From a virus (Duplodnaviria; Caudoviricetes): a stretch of 64,000 bases of DNA. Where the stretch lies: the IMG/VR virus record IMGVR_UViG_3300033076_000210, positions 29,930-93,929 of that record; one strand, given 5' to 3'. Shown piece after piece: positions 6,469 to 63,856 of the stretch (its first letter is position 1; the number at the start of each line of letters is the position of its first letter). The position numbers were made by a program, and so were the translations under genes. Under the pieces are notes generated by a model. That model was given only the letters and a program-made list of their open reading frames with translations, searched no databases and was not told the DNA's origin.

Positions 6469-7230
6469 TCATTTCCAATGTTGCAATATCACTGGGTCCT
6501 GTACTTCTGCAGGGTTGGGTTTTCCGTGAAATACTAATACCCCGGCGCCCCCGAGTTTGGTACCTATTCCAGGGTCTAGATGCTGTCTACGTTTAAAATC
6601 CCAGCCGCCGTCAAGGCATTCCCACTTCCAACTGCGTATCAGTCGTTCATCTAGAAAGAATCGTCGATCCTGTGTTATCACATCGCTTAAAAAGTCCTGA
6701 TCTCCCGGATACCGTCGTTGCAATAAATTAAAGTCTTGCTCGCGAAATTGCCTCCACACATCAGCAAACTTAGTGGTATCCCACCACATCACACTACTAT
6801 TGATTCCTGTGTGCTGTGGCCGCCACAATCGTTTAAAATCTCTAGGAGCCCAAAAATAGTCAGTAGTCTGATGTGTGATCCAATCTATGTTATCAGTAAT
6901 CACTACGTCTAGATCGAAATACAACAGCGGCCCTTGATAATGTTTGTGATTAAACAGTTGTAGTTTGTACCACCAAGCCTTCCTAGGCCCAGTCACTCCA
7001 ATATCTTTCAATTCATGTTTAACCATGTGTGCCGGAACTTTACGGTCCGGCTCTGTGTAGACGTGCAGTCGTATACCACGACTTAGATGCCGGCTCAACA
7101 TGTTATAAAGGCGATCAACATAATCCCAAGAGTATGCAGTGCCATGAATCACGCAGGCACATTGAACTGGGCCCTGCGGTAGTTGCCCTGCTGCTTCTGC
7201 TAAGGCTTTAAGCCTATCCTTCTTACCCAT
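6469..7230 (-). CDS. GT-A fold glycosyltransferase (GT8-like)
   Basis: WWYKLQLF, LYFDLDVVI (DxD), NSSVM, GDQDFL, VFHGKPNP. Confidence 0.8.
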   Translation of the reverse strand: MGKKDRLKALAEAAGQLPQGPVQCACVIHGTAYSWDYVDRLYNMLSRHLSRGIRLHVYTEPDRKVPAHMVKHELKDIGVTGPRKAWWYKLQLFNHKHYQGPLLYFDLDVVITDNIDWITHQTTDYFWAPRDFKRLWRPQHTGINSSVMWWDTTKFADVWRQFREQDFNLLQRRYPGDQDFLSDVITQDRRFFLDERLIRSWKWECLDGGWDFKRRQHLDPGIGTKLGGAGVLVFHGKPNPAEVQDPVILQHWK

Positions 7231-10351: not shown

Positions 10352-11417
10352 GATATTTCTCTATTATCTTCCAAGCTGTGCCATTTTGCATTTCTTTTTT
10401 AGTAAACTGACTGTATGTTAACGCACACAACCAATCACCAATAGGGCCACGATACAAGTTGTTTATGTCTGATATTTGTGTTCTTGCAACCGGAGTACTG
10501 ATATGGGTGTTTAATGTAATAATCGGAACTCCGGCCCAGACAGATTCAATTGCCGCAGCACTAGAGTCTGAGATTACACAATAATAATCATCTGACGACA
10601 TAAGAAGATCGTATACCGAGTTTCGAGTTTTGCGATCCATATCTTTAACACGATATTCAACTGGACGGTCGGTATAATTAACCAATTCACTTGTAATTTT
10701 GTCTCGCCATGTATTTCGATCTGTGTTTAACATGCGGTAGTGAGAATCGCTGCTTTCTACTACTAATATTTTGGTCCCTTTGGTTCTCCACGGTTGCGGT
10801 GTATGTTCCAGTAGTGTTAGTCTGTCAGCTGGGAAATTTAAATGCGATAAACTTTGATGTATGTGGTTGTGACACAATCTATGCCAAGGCTTGCCTTTTG
10901 CTGCAATAAAGTTAGTATATCCTGCGTCAGTAAACCAAAACTCGCTGCCTGCAAGTAATCTAGCCTTAATAGATTCCTCGTTGTTGATAACATTTCGAAT
11001 TATAGTAGGGTCTGCAAAGTTAGTATCGTCAACAATGTATTTGACATCAGTTGATATATGTCTTGCAACATTTTTTATAAATCCATTATGTGTAGGATCT
11101 GCATACCAAGCTAGTAATTGAGATGTGCTTATGCCAGACGACGGGTATTTGCTAGCTAACCAATTTATCAGAGATCGATATTGCTTTTTATAATCAATTA
11201 CCAAACGGTCTGTATGCTGCTCAAGGCATCGACGAATTAAATTATTAACCTCTGCAAAGTTTATATCTAATAGACAAGTCTTGTCCAACCTCTTTTGAAC
11301 TTTGTCGATATACTCATCAAGCTCGCGGTAATTAATACCTTCTTTTTTGTAAGAGTGTATTAAAATTTGTTTTGCTAGAGGCTCTACTAGTTCTTCTCGA
11401 TTAACTATTACTTGCAT
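10344..11417 (-). CDS. KpsC/KpsS-like glycosyltransferase
   Basis: DAGY, PWRTKGTKILVV, YTDRPVEYR, SSAAAIESVWAGVPII, LTYSQFTKKEMQNG. Confidence 0.6.
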   Translation of the reverse strand: MQVIVNREELVEPLAKQILIHSYKKEGINYRELDEYIDKVQKRLDKTCLLDINFAEVNNLIRRCLEQHTDRLVIDYKKQYRSLINWLASKYPSSGISTSQLLAWYADPTHNGFIKNVARHISTDVKYIVDDTNFADPTIIRNVINNEESIKARLLAGSEFWFTDAGYTNFIAAKGKPWHRLCHNHIHQSLSHLNFPADRLTLLEHTPQPWRTKGTKILVVESSDSHYRMLNTDRNTWRDKITSELVNYTDRPVEYRVKDMDRKTRNSVYDLLMSSDDYYCVISDSSAAAIESVWAGVPIITLNTHISTPVARTQISDINNLYRGPIGDWLCALTYSQFTKKEMQNGTAWKIIEKYHV

Positions 11418-60873: not shown

Positions 60874-61497
60874 TTAAAATATGATACTTAATAATTTAGC
60901 TTTGTTGTAAGCGGTGAGTTCGTCACTGGCAGTAGCAGATACAACAAATAATCCTGTTTCCCCAGCGCCTTGTGTATTGTTGTACAACACTACAGAATTT
61001 GATACTGAGCTTGGGACTCCGCCTACATTACCTAATGCTTGCGGACCATTTAATGTTAATACGTTGGTAACATTATTAAATGTTAAGTTAGCACTGGCAC
61101 CAAAATTACCGCTGTTGTTAAATTGAATTTGTGTGTTCGACCCCGAAACTGATGCATTACCAGTTGCAATGTTAGCATAAGCACTAACTGGCGAACCATC
61201 AAAATTTACACTGCTACTGACTTGCCAGACATTAGACGCTACATCAAATCTCAATCCAGCATAACTAACGTTAGCAACTTTTGTAGCAACTAGACCCATA
61301 TCTGTTATCGCGCCAACGTTGTTTGCTGCAACTACAATAAATGCATCATCAACTGCAATATCTGACACGTAGGTAATATTACCAGCAACATTTAAGTTGC
61401 CATTTACGTTCATGGACCCGACCCATTTTGAATTGCCCGAGTCGTAAGGACCAAGATTAACTGTGTAGTCACCACTGGTGGTTTTGAATGTTGCCAT
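60874..61497 (-). CDS. tail fibre-associated protein
   Basis: GSNTQIQFNNSGNFGASANLTFN motif. Confidence 0.75.
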   Translation of the reverse strand: MATFKTTSGDYTVNLGPYDSGNSKWVGSMNVNGNLNVAGNITYVSDIAVDDAFIVVAANNVGAITDMGLVATKVANVSYAGLRFDVASNVWQVSSSVNFDGSPVSAYANIATGNASVSGSNTQIQFNNSGNFGASANLTFNNVTNVLTLNGPQALGNVGGVPSSVSNSVVLYNNTQGAGETGLFVVSATASDELTAYNKAKLLSIIF

Positions 61498-62084
61498 TAG
61501 AAATTCCTCTCTGTATTTAGCTGCTGAATAAACTGTTCTATCGGCAGGTGAGCCATATTTCTTATGTTGTCTATCTCTGTTAATCTAGCGGTTGTTGGCC
61601 CAGCGACCCTGATAAATTTTGTTTCTGGGAAATCACGACAAATCTGTTGAATCTGCTTAACCCAATTGCCAGTATAAGTCGGCACTGAATCTAGTGCTTT
61701 ATAAAATTCAGTACCGGCATACATATTGTTAAATTTGTTATCTTGGGCCGGTCCCATATCAAATCCAATGAGATAAATTTTTCTGTGTTTTTCCAATGCT
61801 GCTAGTGCTGTTGCAATAGGACCAGAGCTAAATCCAAAATATTGTCTTGGCACAGGTAGCCCGCCAAGTGCTTCAGAAGGACGACGAGTGTAAAACTTAT
61901 TAGTCAACGGGTAACCAGAATTTTCAATATGTGTAACTATAGGCTTGTCTGTGGCCACTAGCACATCAGGGACAAAATCTCTATACAACGCATTACACCC
62001 GTATATGCGTCCGTGTGATTTTAATTTATCAAGAGATAAAACTTTTCGACTTACGCCGTTACCTAAAACAAATGCTACATCCAT
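61497..62084 (-). CDS. Maf/GT42-like (CMP-sugar glycosyltransferase-fold) protein
   Basis: start MDVAFVLGNGVSR at 62084; YGCNALY, PDVLVATD, SSG..A...A, KIYLIGFD. Confidence 0.55.
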   Translation of the reverse strand: MDVAFVLGNGVSRKVLSLDKLKSHGRIYGCNALYRDFVPDVLVATDKPIVTHIENSGYPLTNKFYTRRPSEALGGLPVPRQYFGFSSGPIATALAALEKHRKIYLIGFDMGPAQDNKFNNMYAGTEFYKALDSVPTYTGNWVKQIQQICRDFPETKFIRVAGPTTARLTEIDNIRNMAHLPIEQFIQQLNTERNF

Positions 62085-62120
62085 AAAAAAATCCTCCCAG
62101 TATATAGCTGAGAGGATTTT
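62085..62120 (-). terminator. terminator hairpin that also contains the GGAGG RBS of the next gene
   Basis: AAAATCCTC...GGGAGGATTTTTTT-ATG on minus strand. Confidence 0.65.
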
Positions 62121-62139
62121 GGGTTGCGTAAAATTACAA

Positions 62140-62964
62140 TTAAGAAGTGTAATTTTCAACAATTGCCAAATCAAGTGTAGCATCTGTTTCAGAGCCAGAC
62201 TTAGTAACTGTGCCTTCATCAGTGAAGAAGTTAGCAGCAAGTTCGCCTTCACCTGTATACACAACAGGGCCTGCATTGTCACCACCGTCGGCATAGCTAG
62301 TTAAGCTAGTTCCGGCAGCGTTCTGGAAATTATCCCAGTTCAACAAGAACTTGTTGGTCAACTTAGAGATAGCAACAGCAGTCGAGTCACCAGTTGTGTA
62401 GCTGATAGCCATTAAACCAGCAGCAGGTGTTAGGTCACTGGTCAATACACATTGTCCGACTAGATAACCATAACCGTTTTGTGGGCTAGCGCAAAGTGCA
62501 GTGCATGTAAAAACTGTACCAACAACAGCGCCAGCAGGAGCACCCATTTGTTGCCAATCAGTTGTATCTAAACTTGCAATATAATATGAAGCACCGACAA
62601 CCATGTCTTCGTCTTGAACTGCTTGACCGCTGCTCATCACTAGGTATTTGTGTGAACCTTTTTGGCGCAAGATAACACCATCTTCGACACCTTGACCTGA
62701 GCCATCGGGTAGTGTAATGTTAACTTGACATTTAACAATAGGGTATGTAGTAGAAGTTGCAGAGCTACTTGCACCACCAACAACACCCAAGAATTGATCA
62801 GTGTTAAACGCTGTAGTTGGGTAAACTGCATCAGTTAAGCTACCCCAATTTGGATAACCTTGGTTAACTGCTACCGCAGCAGCCGGTTGATTTAATGCGC
62901 CATTGGCGCCGTTGGTAATACCCTGTGCAGGGCCATATTTTTGAATTTTTAGAGGACGTCCCAT
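62140..62964 (-). CDS. virion structural protein (MGRPLK...), possibly capsid decoration
   Basis: 274 aa, TAAGGAG RBS, late promoter at 63063-63068, ILRQKGSHKYLV motif. Confidence 0.75.
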   Translation of the reverse strand: MGRPLKIQKYGPAQGITNGANGALNQPAAAVAVNQGYPNWGSLTDAVYPTTAFNTDQFLGVVGGASSSATSTTYPIVKCQVNITLPDGSGQGVEDGVILRQKGSHKYLVMSSGQAVQDEDMVVGASYYIASLDTTDWQQMGAPAGAVVGTVFTCTALCASPQNGYGYLVGQCVLTSDLTPAAGLMAISYTTGDSTAVAISKLTNKFLLNWDNFQNAAGTSLTSYADGGDNAGPVVYTGEGELAANFFTDEGTVTKSGSETDATLDLAIVENYTS

Positions 62965-62980
62965 TTTGTTTTCTCCTTAA

Positions 62981-63050
62981 AGAAGTCCGATGTGGGTTCT
63001 AGCCACTACGCGGCGGGTTAAACCGCATAAGCTGCATTATTGCAGACCAA
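62981..63050 (-). ncRNA. candidate structured cis-regulatory RNA in 5' leader
   Basis: three consecutive hairpins (CTGCA-ATAA-TGCAG; GCGG-TTTAAC-CCGC; GTGG-CTAGAAC-CCAC) between TAAATA and RBS. Confidence 0.4.
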
Positions 63051-63089
63051 GTTTTGAACTAGTATTTATTGAAACTTGCCCAAAATGCT

Positions 63090-63117
63090 TTGCAGGCAAT
63101 TTAATCTACTATATAAT
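63090..63117 (+). promoter_or_regulatory. sigma70-like promoter TTGCAG-N16-TATAAT for the tRNA unit
   Basis: perfect -10 ending 8 nt before tRNA 5' end. Confidence 0.6.
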
Positions 63118-63125
63118 AAACACAT

Positions 63126-63200
63126 GCGCTAGAGGCTAAGTGGTATAGCAAGAGCTTCTAAAACTCGAGATAGCAGGTTCGAACCCTGTCTAGCGCACCA
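63126..63200 (+). tRNA. tRNA with CUA anticodon (amber suppressor)
   Basis: GCGCTAG/CTAGCGC acceptor stem, A73, encoded CCA, GCTA/TAGC D-stem with GG, GCAGG-TTCGAAC-CCTGT T-arm; anticodon arm AGAGC-TT CTA AA-ACTCG (two mismatches), non-canonical A8. Confidence 0.8.
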
Positions 63201-63220
63201 TCTAACTTAAAGGAAATAAA

Positions 63221-63784
63221 ATGTCAATGTAGATTGAATATGCTTGTAAAGATGTAGTCTTCCACTTTAACAAAAAGCACTTAGAGGACGAGACTGTTCC
63301 TATGTGGGTCTTAAAATCACATGGTGTCACTTTCTATGTTAATCACATAGATGCCAATATTCCTTTTTCAACAAAGGAAACTCCCGATAACTCGCATACC
63401 AAAGGCAGCTTGAAGTTCAAGGACTGCAAATTAACTATCCACGACGATAATACTGCTACGTTGGATAAGTTAGGTATGTTTGATCACAATCTCCCGCATC
63501 CCAAAGAAACTGTTCGTATTATTGCCCGTGACGGTAGCGATATACACGAAGCACTTGCCAGGAATGAATACGCACACACTGCATTTAAGTATGTCGAAGG
63601 TGCGTGTAGTACAGAGTTTGTTATATGTGACTTGTTAGACAAGAACGAAATGTTATTGGCCATGCTAAAATATCCTAAGCAGTTTAGATTGTTAAGTCCA
63701 AATGAACGTTATTACATTGCTTATGAAAAAGATGCAACTATTTGGAGTGAAGTCGACAACGACGAGTACTACGAGCTCGAATAA
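63221..63784 (+). CDS. 187-aa hypothetical protein with in-frame TAG at codon 4 (needs amber read-through)
   Basis: AAGGA RBS then ATG TCA ATG TAG ATT GAA TAT GCT TGT..., in frame with tracked ORF 63302-63784. Confidence 0.75.
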
Positions 63785-63797
63785 TATTTGCCCAAAG

Positions 63798-63821
63798 AAA
63801 AAGCCCCTTGCGGGGCTTTTT
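63798..63821. terminator. bidirectional intrinsic terminator
   Basis: AAAAAGCCCC-TTGC-GGGGCTTTTT between convergent genes. Confidence 0.85.
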
Positions 63822-63856
63822 CGTACCTTCCCATCCCTGGGTAAGTCTTGCAGTGA

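What the first reader, a model, noticed from the sequence alone, without database searches (positions are those of the whole stretch)
63090..63821. Amber-suppressor tRNA co-transcribed with a gene locked by an in-frame TAG: candidate self-contained translational switch
Seen: a sigma70-like promoter, a 75-nt tRNA whose anticodon-arm pairing (GAG/CTC) centres CTA in a U33/A37 loop, and a RBS (AAGGA) about 10 nt after its CCA. The gene starts ATG TCA ATG TAG ATT GAA TAT GCT TGT AAA..., with TAG at 63230-63232. It then continues in frame (IEYACKDVVFHFNKKHLEDETVP-MWVLK...) into the tracked 160-aa ORF and a terminator. The cassette sits on the opposite strand between the capsid gene and another late gene. 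I found no other in-frame TAG in the window, and TAG still ends three genes, so this is not genome-wide recoding. Inference: the tRNA is the key for the adjacent gene, so the protein is made only when this tRNA is processed and charged. That could act as a timer, dosage limiter, host-compatibility test or sensor of tRNA-targeting defences. A coincidental sequencing error producing TAG 30 nt from a CUA tRNA seems unlikely but cannot be excluded.
Basis: partly seen in the sequence, partly recalled or inferred. Interest (0 to 1): 0.95.

Follow-up and report, generated by a model that had tools for sequence, protein, structure and literature searches.

The report
Phage gene gated by own amber-suppressor tRNA
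A giant T4-like phage that otherwise uses the normal genetic code keeps a UAG stop as the fourth codon of one conserved gene, just downstream of its own UAG-reading tRNA; dozens of distant relatives keep the same pairing, so it looks like a natural one-codon translational gate that I could not find in the literature.

Summary
A sigma70-like promoter is followed by a tRNA with anticodon CUA (63126-63200), a 20-nt spacer with a ribosome-binding site, a 187-codon frame (63221-63784) with TAG as codon 4, and a terminator.

This is not a sequencing error:
- 77 of 78 related viral loci carry TAG at the same site, never TAA or TGA.
- The 23 codons after the TAG are under protein-level selection.
- A tRNA(CUA) of one covarying family lies upstream on the same strand in 66 of 68 loci with enough flank.

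The rest of the genome uses the standard code, and I found no other gated gene in this contig or in a complete 344-kb relative. The one clade whose copy lacks the TAG keeps the tRNA, and there a PTH2-like gene at the head of the same operon carries ATG-NNN-TAG-ATT. So the gate moved rather than disappeared.

A cultured Rhizobium phage (RHph_I1_18) has an unannotated, TAG-bearing short homologue next to its tRNA(CUA), which makes this testable.

Two things stay unknown: the protein's function (no Pfam or PHROG hit, no convincing fold match) and the inserted amino acid. The "Gln" seen in database homologues is a gene-calling artefact.

This scan has noted the same gene family before on other DNA.

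The parts
63089..63117 (+). sigma70-type promoter: TTTGCA, 17 nt, TATAAT. The -10 box ends 8 nt before the tRNA 5' end.
   Evidence: 10 of 12 matches. The same arrangement sits upstream of the tRNA(CUA) in most related loci.
63126..63200 (+). Amber-suppressor tRNA, anticodon CUA at 63158-63160. It has G1-C72, C2-G71, G3-C70, A73 and an encoded CCA. It also has A8 and only a 3-bp Watson-Crick anticodon stem.
   Evidence: ARAGORN. Rfam RF00005, 55.2 bits. Family of 37 aligned members with compensatory changes at 17 of 20 pairs.
63201..63220 (+). 20-nt spacer carrying the Shine-Dalgarno AAGGA (63210-63214). Nearly the same spacer occurs in L002, L022, L024, L028 and L031.
63221..63784 (+). 187-codon gene of unknown function: leader M-S-M, then TAG, then a conserved all-beta N-domain, a ferredoxin-like C-domain and an acidic tail. 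Stop is TAA at 63782-63784.
   Evidence: Translation. 853 homologues. Alignment A1. AlphaFold models with pLDDT 82 (whole protein) and 91 (N-domain).
63230..63232 (+). In-frame amber codon (codon 4), followed by ATT.
   Evidence: TAG at the homologous site in 77 of 78 related loci, followed by ATT in 62, ATC in 13 and ATA in 3.
63302..63304 (+). Internal Met28, the first canonical start after the TAG. Gene callers using table 11 start the truncated 160-aa product here.
63797..63822 (+). GC-rich hairpin flanked by an A run and a T run. It is a likely bidirectional intrinsic terminator shared with the convergent capsid gene.
   Evidence: Read from the sequence. The consensus scan did not list it.

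Best explanation
The locus is one compact transcription unit: promoter, tRNA(CUA), ribosome-binding site, gene with UAG at codon 4, terminator. Host RNA polymerase starts the transcript essentially at the tRNA. The tRNA is cut out, trimmed and charged by a host synthetase. Ribosomes that load on the downstream message reach UAG after three codons. There the phage tRNA competes with host release factor 1.

- If the tRNA wins, the conserved 187-residue protein is made.
- If release factor 1 wins, only a tripeptide is released, at almost no cost.

Synthesis of the protein therefore depends on, and scales with, active charged suppressor tRNA relative to release factor 1.

The gate itself is under selection. 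It is ancestral to a large clade of T4-like jumbo phages, is always TAG, and is always followed by an A. In the one lineage where this gene lost the TAG, the gate sits instead on a PTH2-like gene at the head of the same operon.

Shown: the anatomy, the conservation, the covariation of the tRNA and the standard code elsewhere.
Inferred: that suppression really happens, which amino acid is inserted, and the purpose. Given the neighbours in relatives (PTH2-like, RNA ligase, metallophosphoesterase, tmRNA), the most likely purpose is control of a translation or tRNA-related function.
For: - tRNA calls.
- Frame and TAG.
- Family size: 853 homologues, typical length 185-193 aa, covering the region upstream of Met28.
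- TAG at the same site in 77 of 78 loci. It is never TAA or TAG's alternative TGA, although TAA is the commonest stop (74 of 118 genes). Leaders vary (MS, ML, MA, MQK, MTQQ and others) and the next codon is always ATH.
- Purifying selection on the 23 codons after the TAG.
- The tRNA(CUA) family has compensatory changes at 17 of 20 pairs and invariant G1-C72, C2-G71, A73 and UCUAA.
- It is found upstream on the same strand in 66 of 68 loci with flank, and in all five complete relatives.
- Conserved promoter abutting the tRNA.
- Standard code fits elsewhere: about 95% coding coverage, and no second RBS-ATG-TAG start in the 94-kb contig or in the complete relative G001.
- Across 459 kb of related loci the pattern occurs 75 times at this gene and 4 times elsewhere, against 0 with TAA and 4 with TGA.
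- TAG-free copies form one nested clade, and there the PTH2-like gene after the tRNA carries ATG-NNN-TAG-ATT.
- Cultured phage RHph_I1_18 repeats the design: M-S-E-F-M-TAG-N-E-S-C-R..., with the tRNA 12 nt after the stop.
Against: - There is no expression, aminoacylation or peptide evidence; reads could not be examined.
- This window's tRNA has A8 and a 3-bp anticodon stem, so its efficiency is uncertain.
- TAG still ends real genes (4 of 118 here, 34 of 409 in G001), and those stops are not depleted in the favourable +4 A context. A strong suppressor would therefore have a cost.
- In one subgroup (L120 type) the TAG is followed by ATG, which could allow the protein to be made without suppression.
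- The apparent Gln at the TAG position in database homologues comes from gene calling with TAG=Q, so it gives no support.
- The protein has no known family or fold, so the purpose of the gate is guesswork.
Confidence: 0.72

Rival explanations
1. Tiny upstream ORF with termination-reinitiation. The leader (M-S-M) is a real mini-ORF that ends at UAG, and the ribosome restarts at the adjacent AUU, so the protein begins at that codon. The tRNA(CUA) has another job.
For: - The codon after the TAG is nearly always AUN (ATT 62, ATC 13, ATA 3), which is near-cognate to a start codon.
- In the L120 subgroup it is ATG.
- The leader is very short and variable.
Against: - Any stop codon would serve a mini-ORF, yet all 78 gates are TAG, in genomes where TAG is the rarest stop.
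- ATC and ATA are very poor starts (general knowledge of bacterial initiation).
- In RHph_I1_18 the next codon is AAC, which is not a start.
- Ile at this position is also kept in TAG-free copies (M-S-A-I-N-Y), so it belongs to the protein.
- The near-universal neighbouring tRNA(CUA) would be left unexplained.
Confidence: 0.07
2. The tRNA's main job lies elsewhere, and the amber codon is a guard or passenger. Possible main jobs are reading through host or phage TAG stops, or replacing or decoying tRNAs attacked by host defences. The read-through happens, but the TAG exists to keep the tRNA under selection, or is simply tolerated, rather than to regulate the protein.
For: - The tRNA persists when this gene loses its TAG.
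- The TAG lies in a variable leader where any residue would be tolerated.
- Phage suppressor tRNAs with no identified targets are on record (XacN1, PMC5852040).
Against: - A merely tolerated TAG should have drifted to a sense codon (seven of nine single changes do so) across lineages whose synonymous sites are heavily diverged. It did not.
- Where it was lost, another gene next to the tRNA carries the same ATG-NNN-TAG-ATT. Some gated gene is therefore always kept.
- The tRNA sits apart from the main tRNA array and directly beside its target.
Confidence: 0.15
3. Artefact or decay: a sequencing error or a recently inactivated gene that happens to lie next to a tRNA with a mutated anticodon.
For: Only a single contig is available for this phage, and reads could not be checked.
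Against: The same TAG occurs in 77 independent loci. Both sides of it are under purifying selection, and the tRNA family covaries.
Confidence: 0.01

Closest known systems
Stop-codon-recoded phages with their own suppressor tRNAs (TAG read as Gln, "code 15": crAss-like, Lak and others; bioRxiv 10.1101/2021.08.26.457843; PMC9523058)
   Same: A phage infecting a standard-code host carries a tRNA(CUA), and in-frame TAG blocks translation of phage genes until the tRNA acts. Those authors proposed recoding as a post-transcriptional regulator.
   Different: - There, tens to hundreds of genes (mostly late and lysis genes) carry many TAGs and TAG is no longer a stop.
- Here the standard code holds throughout, TAG still ends genes, and a single codon in one gene (or one operon head) is gated.
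- That codon sits at a fixed position 3-6 codons from the start, beside the tRNA.
- The tRNA does not look like tRNA-Gln (G1-C72, A73).
prfB (release factor 2) autoregulation through an early in-frame UGA (my own knowledge, not tested here)
   Same: An in-frame stop a few codons into a gene turns the competition between termination and an alternative decoding event into a control point.
   Different: prfB uses a +1 frameshift, needs no dedicated tRNA, and its product is the release factor being sensed. Here the alternative event is suppression by a dedicated tRNA, and the product is an unknown protein.
Suppressor tRNAs of standard-code jumbo phages with no known targets (Xanthomonas phage XacN1, PMC5852040; Atu_ph07 opal suppressor, PMC6102473)
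   Same: These are large myoviruses with big tRNA sets that include a CUA or UCA tRNA, while the genome is otherwise standard code.
   Different: Those studies read through the ends of annotated genes and found nothing. Here the target is an amber at the very start of a gene, which such a search and ordinary gene callers both miss.
Engineered amber-suppression switches and biocontainment circuits (for example PMC6412442)
   Same: The logic is the same: an early UAG makes a protein conditional on an orthogonal suppressor tRNA.
   Different: Those are man-made and usually depend on an added synthetase and an unnatural amino acid. This one is natural and apparently relies on a host synthetase: no GlnRS/GluRS or class II LysRS was found in four complete relatives.

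Membership tests
Canonical elongator tRNA (Rfam RF00005) | Cloverleaf scoring above the family's gathering score | tested here: met
   55.2 bits against 29. ARAGORN also calls it.
Canonical elongator tRNA (Rfam RF00005) | Stems supported by compensatory changes among relatives | tested here: met
   17 of 20 pairs show changes on both sides in 37 sequences.
Canonical elongator tRNA (Rfam RF00005) | Conserved core nucleotides (U8, 5-bp anticodon stem) | tested here: not met
   The window copy has A8 and the mismatches A27.G43 and C31.A39. A 31.39 A.C or C.A mismatch is common across the family.
Amber suppressor tRNA | Anticodon CUA in a 7-nt loop with U33 and a purine at 37 | tested here: met
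   Loop UUCUAAA. UCUAA is invariant in 37 relatives.
Amber suppressor tRNA | Is aminoacylated and inserts a residue at UAG | not testable with these tools
   No reads or proteomics were available. The Gln in database homologues is a translation artefact.
tRNA-Pyl (ARAGORN's label) | The unusual pyrrolysine tRNA shape (elongated 6-bp anticodon stem, 3-nt variable loop, no G18G19 or T-psi-C motif) | tested here: not met
   D-loop GUGG, T-loop GGUUCGAAC, 5-nt variable loop and a short anticodon stem. The label only reflects the anticodon.
Stop-codon-recoded (code 15) phage | Many genes interrupted by in-frame TAG; the standard code gives fragmented genes | tested here: not met
   The standard code gives about 95% coding coverage. 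Only one gated gene was found in 94 kb, and one in the 344-kb relative.
Stop-codon-recoded (code 15) phage | TAG no longer used as a stop | tested here: not met
   TAG ends 4 of 118 genes here and 34 of 409 in G001.
Stop-codon-recoded (code 15) phage | Phage-encoded suppressor tRNA | tested here: met
Termination-reinitiation mini-ORF | Any stop codon can end the mini-ORF, and a usable start codon follows | tested here: not met
   All 78 are TAG. The following codons are ATT, ATC or ATA, and AAC in RHph_I1_18.
PTH2 peptidyl-tRNA hydrolase (PF01981), considered for the gated protein | Match to the family profile | tested here: not met
   The window protein has no Pfam, PHROG or NCBIfam hit. Only the second gated gene of TAG-free relatives (L106) matches weakly: E 4e-4, 21 bits, below the cut-off of 23.

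The most novel reading that the evidence does not exclude
The amber gate is a sensor, not just a lock. By placing UAG 3-6 codons into the first gene of a small module, the phage would read the ratio of its charged suppressor tRNA to host release factor 1, and so the health of the cell's tRNA processing, charging and termination machinery. It would use that reading to set the level of proteins that act on tRNA, peptidyl-tRNA or the ribosome: the unknown two-domain protein here, and a PTH2-like hydrolase in the sister clade. Relatives carry RNA ligase, phosphoesterase, tmRNA and ArfB-like genes nearby. This would be a natural tRNA-operated feedback circuit, possibly tied to host tRNA-cleaving defences or to drop-off of very short peptidyl-tRNAs.
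Probability: 0.3. Interest if true: 0.9.

Novelty: new variant of a known kind. Interest (0 to 1): 0.78.

Why it matters
Suppressor tRNAs turn up in many large phages that use the standard code, and published attempts to find what they read have failed (XacN1, PMC5852040). This locus gives a concrete answer for one large clade. The target is a single amber codon at the very start of a conserved gene, which gene callers either truncate or silently translate as Gln.

It shows stop-codon reassignment in its smallest form: one codon, one gene, one tRNA. That form could be either the seed of full recoding or a stand-alone regulatory device.

It is directly testable, because a cultured Rhizobium phage carries the same design. 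It also offers a compact natural part (promoter, tRNA, gated start) of the kind synthetic biologists build by hand.

Finally, it flags a systematic annotation error: this family is stored in public databases as 160-aa or 176-aa truncations, or with a spurious Gln.

Tried and rejected
1. Gln as the inserted residue. 73 of the 120 best database homologues show Q at the TAG position, but the one whose DNA could be checked (P0009) translates to its record only with TAG=Q. I rejected this as evidence. For P0001 the DNA could not be fetched.
2. Parent tRNA. I compared the tRNA with all 32 tRNAs of the complete relative G001 and with the Lys(CUU), Gln(CUG) and Tyr tRNAs of RHph_I1_18. No clear parent emerged (best about 70% identity). 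The amino-acid identity is left open.
3. Function of the protein. Pfam, PHROGs and NCBIfam gave nothing. Foldseek against PDB gave nothing at E <= 0.001. BFVD returned only a truncated homologue. VIA-align on the whole model gave at best Z 5.7 to generic ACT/RRM-like ferredoxin folds, for residues 96-173 only. The N-domain modelled alone (pLDDT 91) gave at best Z 3.4. The ESM Atlas gave no usable hit. A profile search of 1.84 billion representatives found 143 clusters in three layouts (two-domain, N-domain only, N-domain after an extension of about 100 aa), with no informative fusion.
4. Other amber-gated genes. Scans for RBS-ATG-(1-8 codons)-TAG-long-frame and for long gaps after an upstream TAG found only this gene in the contig and in G001. 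A scan for internal TAGs between long open stretches was too noisy to use, so internal ambers in long genes are not excluded.
5. A weak PTH2-like tblastn hit at window 7045-7116 was not supported by Pfam. No PTH2 was found in G000-G004.
6. Avoidance of A after genuine TAG stops: none seen.
8. I ran no complex prediction, because no binding claim is made.

Full report
**What the window is.** The window is the last 64 kb of a 93.9-kb IMG/VR viral contig that CheckV rates 28% complete. That implies a genome of roughly 330 kb. Tail sheath, baseplate and tail-fibre matches and the C-terminal end of a Gp23-type capsid protein at the contig edge mark it as a T4-like jumbo myovirus. G+C is 43%.

**Checking the observation.**
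- ARAGORN finds exactly one tRNA in the whole contig, at window 63126-63200 (+), anticodon CUA.
- Rfam's tRNA model scores it at 55.2 bits against a gathering score of 29.
- The sequence shows TTTGCA-N17-TATAAT ending 8 nt before the tRNA, an encoded CCA, and a 20-nt spacer with AAGGA.
- Then comes ATG TCA ATG TAG ATT..., in frame with the 160-aa ORF that table 11 starts at ATG 63302.
- The frame ends at TAA 63782-63784 and is followed by a GC hairpin with a T run.
- Read with the TAG as a sense codon, the frame gives 187 residues.

**Is the TAG real and is the upstream part coding?**
- A search of 5.8 billion proteins gave 853 homologues, typically 185-193 aa and covering 90-98% of the read-through product. 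In the alignment, the stretch between the TAG and Met28 (C-K-D-V-V-F-H-F-N-K-K-H-L-E-D) is among the best conserved parts.
- I fetched 80 related loci from IMG/VR, at 51-67% identity, and read the DNA. In 77 of the 78 loci that include the 5' end, the gene has a strong ribosome-binding site, an ATG, one to a few variable codons, then TAG at exactly the homologous position (10 codons before F-H-F-N in 71 loci), then an Ile codon.
- The stop is TAG every time. It is never TAA or TGA, although TAA is the commonest stop in these genomes and TAG the rarest (74, 40 and 4 of 118 genes here).
- The leaders differ widely (MS, ML, MA, MK, MQ, MSM, MQK, MTQQ, MSQA and more), so these are many diverged lineages and not copies.
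- Among 57 distinct TAG-bearing representatives, the 23 codons after the TAG show 13,248 synonymous against 7,441 non-synonymous codon-pair differences. The region is therefore translated and under protein-level selection.

A sequencing error or a dead gene is excluded.

**A trap worth recording.** In the protein database, 73 of the 120 best homologues show Gln where the window has TAG. That would have been neat evidence for Gln insertion. But the record whose DNA I could check translates to its database sequence only with TAG=Q. These entries were produced by a gene caller that switches to code 15. Others are truncated at Met28, or at a Val read as Met before F-H-F-N. So the Gln is an artefact, and the inserted amino acid is unknown.

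**The tRNA.**
- ARAGORN finds a CUA tRNA on the same strand upstream of the gene in 56 of the 80 loci.
- A covariance model built from 37 of these tRNAs recovers further members that ARAGORN missed, all with the YUCUAAA loop.
- In total, 66 of 68 loci with a usable upstream flank have the tRNA within about 3 kb. All five complete relatives have it 0.03-1.7 kb upstream.
- The family keeps the cloverleaf through compensatory changes at 17 of 20 pairs.
- G1-C72, C2-G71, A73-CCA and UCUAA are invariant, and G3-C70 holds in 36 of 37 members. The 31.39 pair is usually an A.C or C.A mismatch.
- The tRNA does not resemble the phage's own tRNA-Gln, Lys, Glu or Trp.
- The complete relatives encode no GlnRS/GluRS or class II LysRS, so a host synthetase must charge it.
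- From what is known of E. coli amber suppressors (my own knowledge), GlnRS and LysRS often accept CUA anticodons and LeuRS relies on A73. Gln, Lys and Leu are therefore the candidates.
- In most loci a TTGACA-N17-TATAAT promoter ends about 7 nt before the tRNA. The tRNA would then be the first thing in a host-polymerase transcript. That points to early expression, not a late timer.
- In the complete relative G001, the CUA tRNA sits 8 kb away from the main array of 31 tRNAs, directly in front of the gated gene.

**Not genome-wide recoding.**
- The standard code gives about 95% coding coverage.
- A scan for RBS-ATG-(1-8 codons)-TAG followed by a long open frame finds only this gene in the contig. 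In G001 it finds this gene plus seven unconvincing hits.
- Over 459 kb of related loci the pattern occurs 75 times at this gene and 4 times elsewhere. The same scan with TAA gives 0 and with TGA gives 4.

**The gate can move.**
- Five homologues truly lack the TAG (N-termini such as M-S-A-I-N-Y). They form one clade nested inside the TAG-bearing tree.
- All five still have the tRNA(CUA) 1-2.6 kb upstream.
- In four of the five, the gene right after the tRNA starts ATG-NNN-TAG-ATT and continues as a PTH2-like protein (Pfam PF01981, E 4e-4, just below the cut-off). The fifth (L108) has the same start, but there the frame runs across a homing-endonuclease gene and was not resolved.
- There, the family studied here lies a few short, overlapping genes downstream in the same operon. 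So a gated gene next to the tRNA is always kept.
- The complete genomes with the gate on this family have no PTH2 gene at all.
- One subgroup (L120 type) keeps the TAG but has ATG after it. That could allow a bypass.

**Cultured relatives.**
- Rhizobium phage RHph_I1_18 has an unannotated frame M-S-E-F-M-TAG-N-E-S-C-R-E-V-I-F-H-F-N-K... that encodes the N-domain alone. Its stop lies 12 nt before the tRNA annotated as tRNA-Pyl(cta).
- In Atu_ph07 and Phosso the domain is fused behind an extension of about 100 aa, without a TAG. It sits near a peptidyl-tRNA hydrolase, an RNA ligase and a metallophosphatase.
- Atu_ph07 has no CUA tRNA (PMC6102473).

**The protein.**
- The AlphaFold model has pLDDT 82 for the whole protein and 91 for the N-domain alone. 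It shows an all-beta N-domain, a ferredoxin-like C-domain and an acidic tail.
- No sequence family and no convincing fold match was found.
- A profile search finds 143 representative clusters, all small proteins of about 40 to 325 residues apart from one weak 1,171-residue hit, in three layouts and with no informative fusion.
- The function stays unknown. The neighbourhoods hint at tRNA or translation.

**How it most likely works.** Suppression competes with release factor 1 at codon 4. The A after the UAG is the context known to favour suppressors (my own knowledge of the classic context studies). The early position makes failure cheap. A TAG that was merely tolerated would have drifted to a sense codon over this much divergence, so the gate is selected.

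**Rivals.** Reinitiation at AUU fails on the TAG-only rule, and on the AAC that follows the TAG in RHph_I1_18. The reading that the tRNA's main job lies elsewhere and the TAG is a guard remains possible.

**Literature.**
- Recoded phages with suppressor tRNAs are well described (10.1101/2021.08.26.457843; PMC9523058).
- The XacN1 paper looked for targets of its CUA tRNAs by reading through annotated stops and found none (PMC5852040).
- Four full-text searches found no description of a single early amber codon paired with a suppressor tRNA in standard-code phages.
- Earlier notes of this scan describe the same family and the PTH2-like variant on other genomes. I treated them as leads and re-derived the points above from this window.

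Noticed in passing
window 62962-63047 (-): A full-length freshwater-2 RNA motif (RF02980, 71.6 bits against a gathering score of 49.9) forms the 5' leader of the 274-aa gene at 62140-62964 (-), which starts M-G-R-P-L-K. It lies back to back with the tRNA promoter. The same motif occurs in a relative (L058 1117-1197, 77.8 bits), and motif-like sequence precedes an M-G-R-S-L gene in G001 near 290,000. This orphan motif therefore seems to be a leader of a conserved jumbo-phage gene next to the capsid gene.
   Followed up: partly
L003 3552-3940; L014 3516-3904; G001 203303-203716; several other loci: Relatives encode permuted tmRNAs of the betaproteobacterial type (RF01850, up to 138 bits; tags such as ANDTRFALAA) close to the tRNA(CUA) module. 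This hints at betaproteobacterial hosts and at a cluster of translation-rescue functions.
   Followed up: partly
window 63126-63200; L005, L011, L019, L026, L038: The tRNA(CUA) family has several oddities. About 40% of members, including the window copy, have A8 instead of U8. The 31.39 pair is usually an A.C or C.A mismatch. A subgroup lacks G18G19 and has a UUUGA or UUAGA T-loop, and ARAGORN misses that subgroup.
   Followed up: partly
L106 (GCA_035707045.1, contig DASSUK010001367.1, 358,784 bp): A 359-kb contig deposited in a MAG labelled Methanosarcina sp. carries this phage gene family, a tRNA array and RecA-like and homing-endonuclease genes. It is most likely a mis-binned jumbo-phage genome.
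   Followed up: no
protein database homologues P0001-P0120: Public records of this family are systematically wrong at the N-terminus. About 60% are translated with TAG as Gln, about 14% are truncated at Met28 or at a Val read as Met, and the UniProt/BFVD entry A0A6J7WMG8 is the 160-aa truncation.
   Followed up: yes
L110 2978-3224 (MN988519.1, about 11001-11247, minus strand): Cultured Rhizobium phage RHph_I1_18 has an unannotated 81-codon frame with TAG at codon 6, homologous to the N-domain, directly upstream of its annotated tRNA-Pyl(cta). Rfam also finds an unannotated tRNA just after that one (L110 3317-3391).
   Followed up: partly
G003 309673-309957 (-); G004 293773-294084 (-): Short RF-1-domain frames (139 and 187 aa, ArfB/ICT1-like in size) lie inside the tRNA arrays of two complete relatives. 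They are absent from G001 and G002.
   Followed up: no
G001 198792-198868 and 199854-199932: ARAGORN calls two tRNA-Leu genes (anticodons UAG and CAA) of only 77-79 nt, which means they lack the usual long variable arm.
   Followed up: no
window 61497-62294 (-) and 62140-62964 (-): The longest ORF of the gene downstream of the freshwater-2 gene overlaps it by 155 nt. Its homology (phrog_30607, with a weak sialyltransferase-like hit) begins at residue 74, so the true start is probably further in.
   Followed up: no
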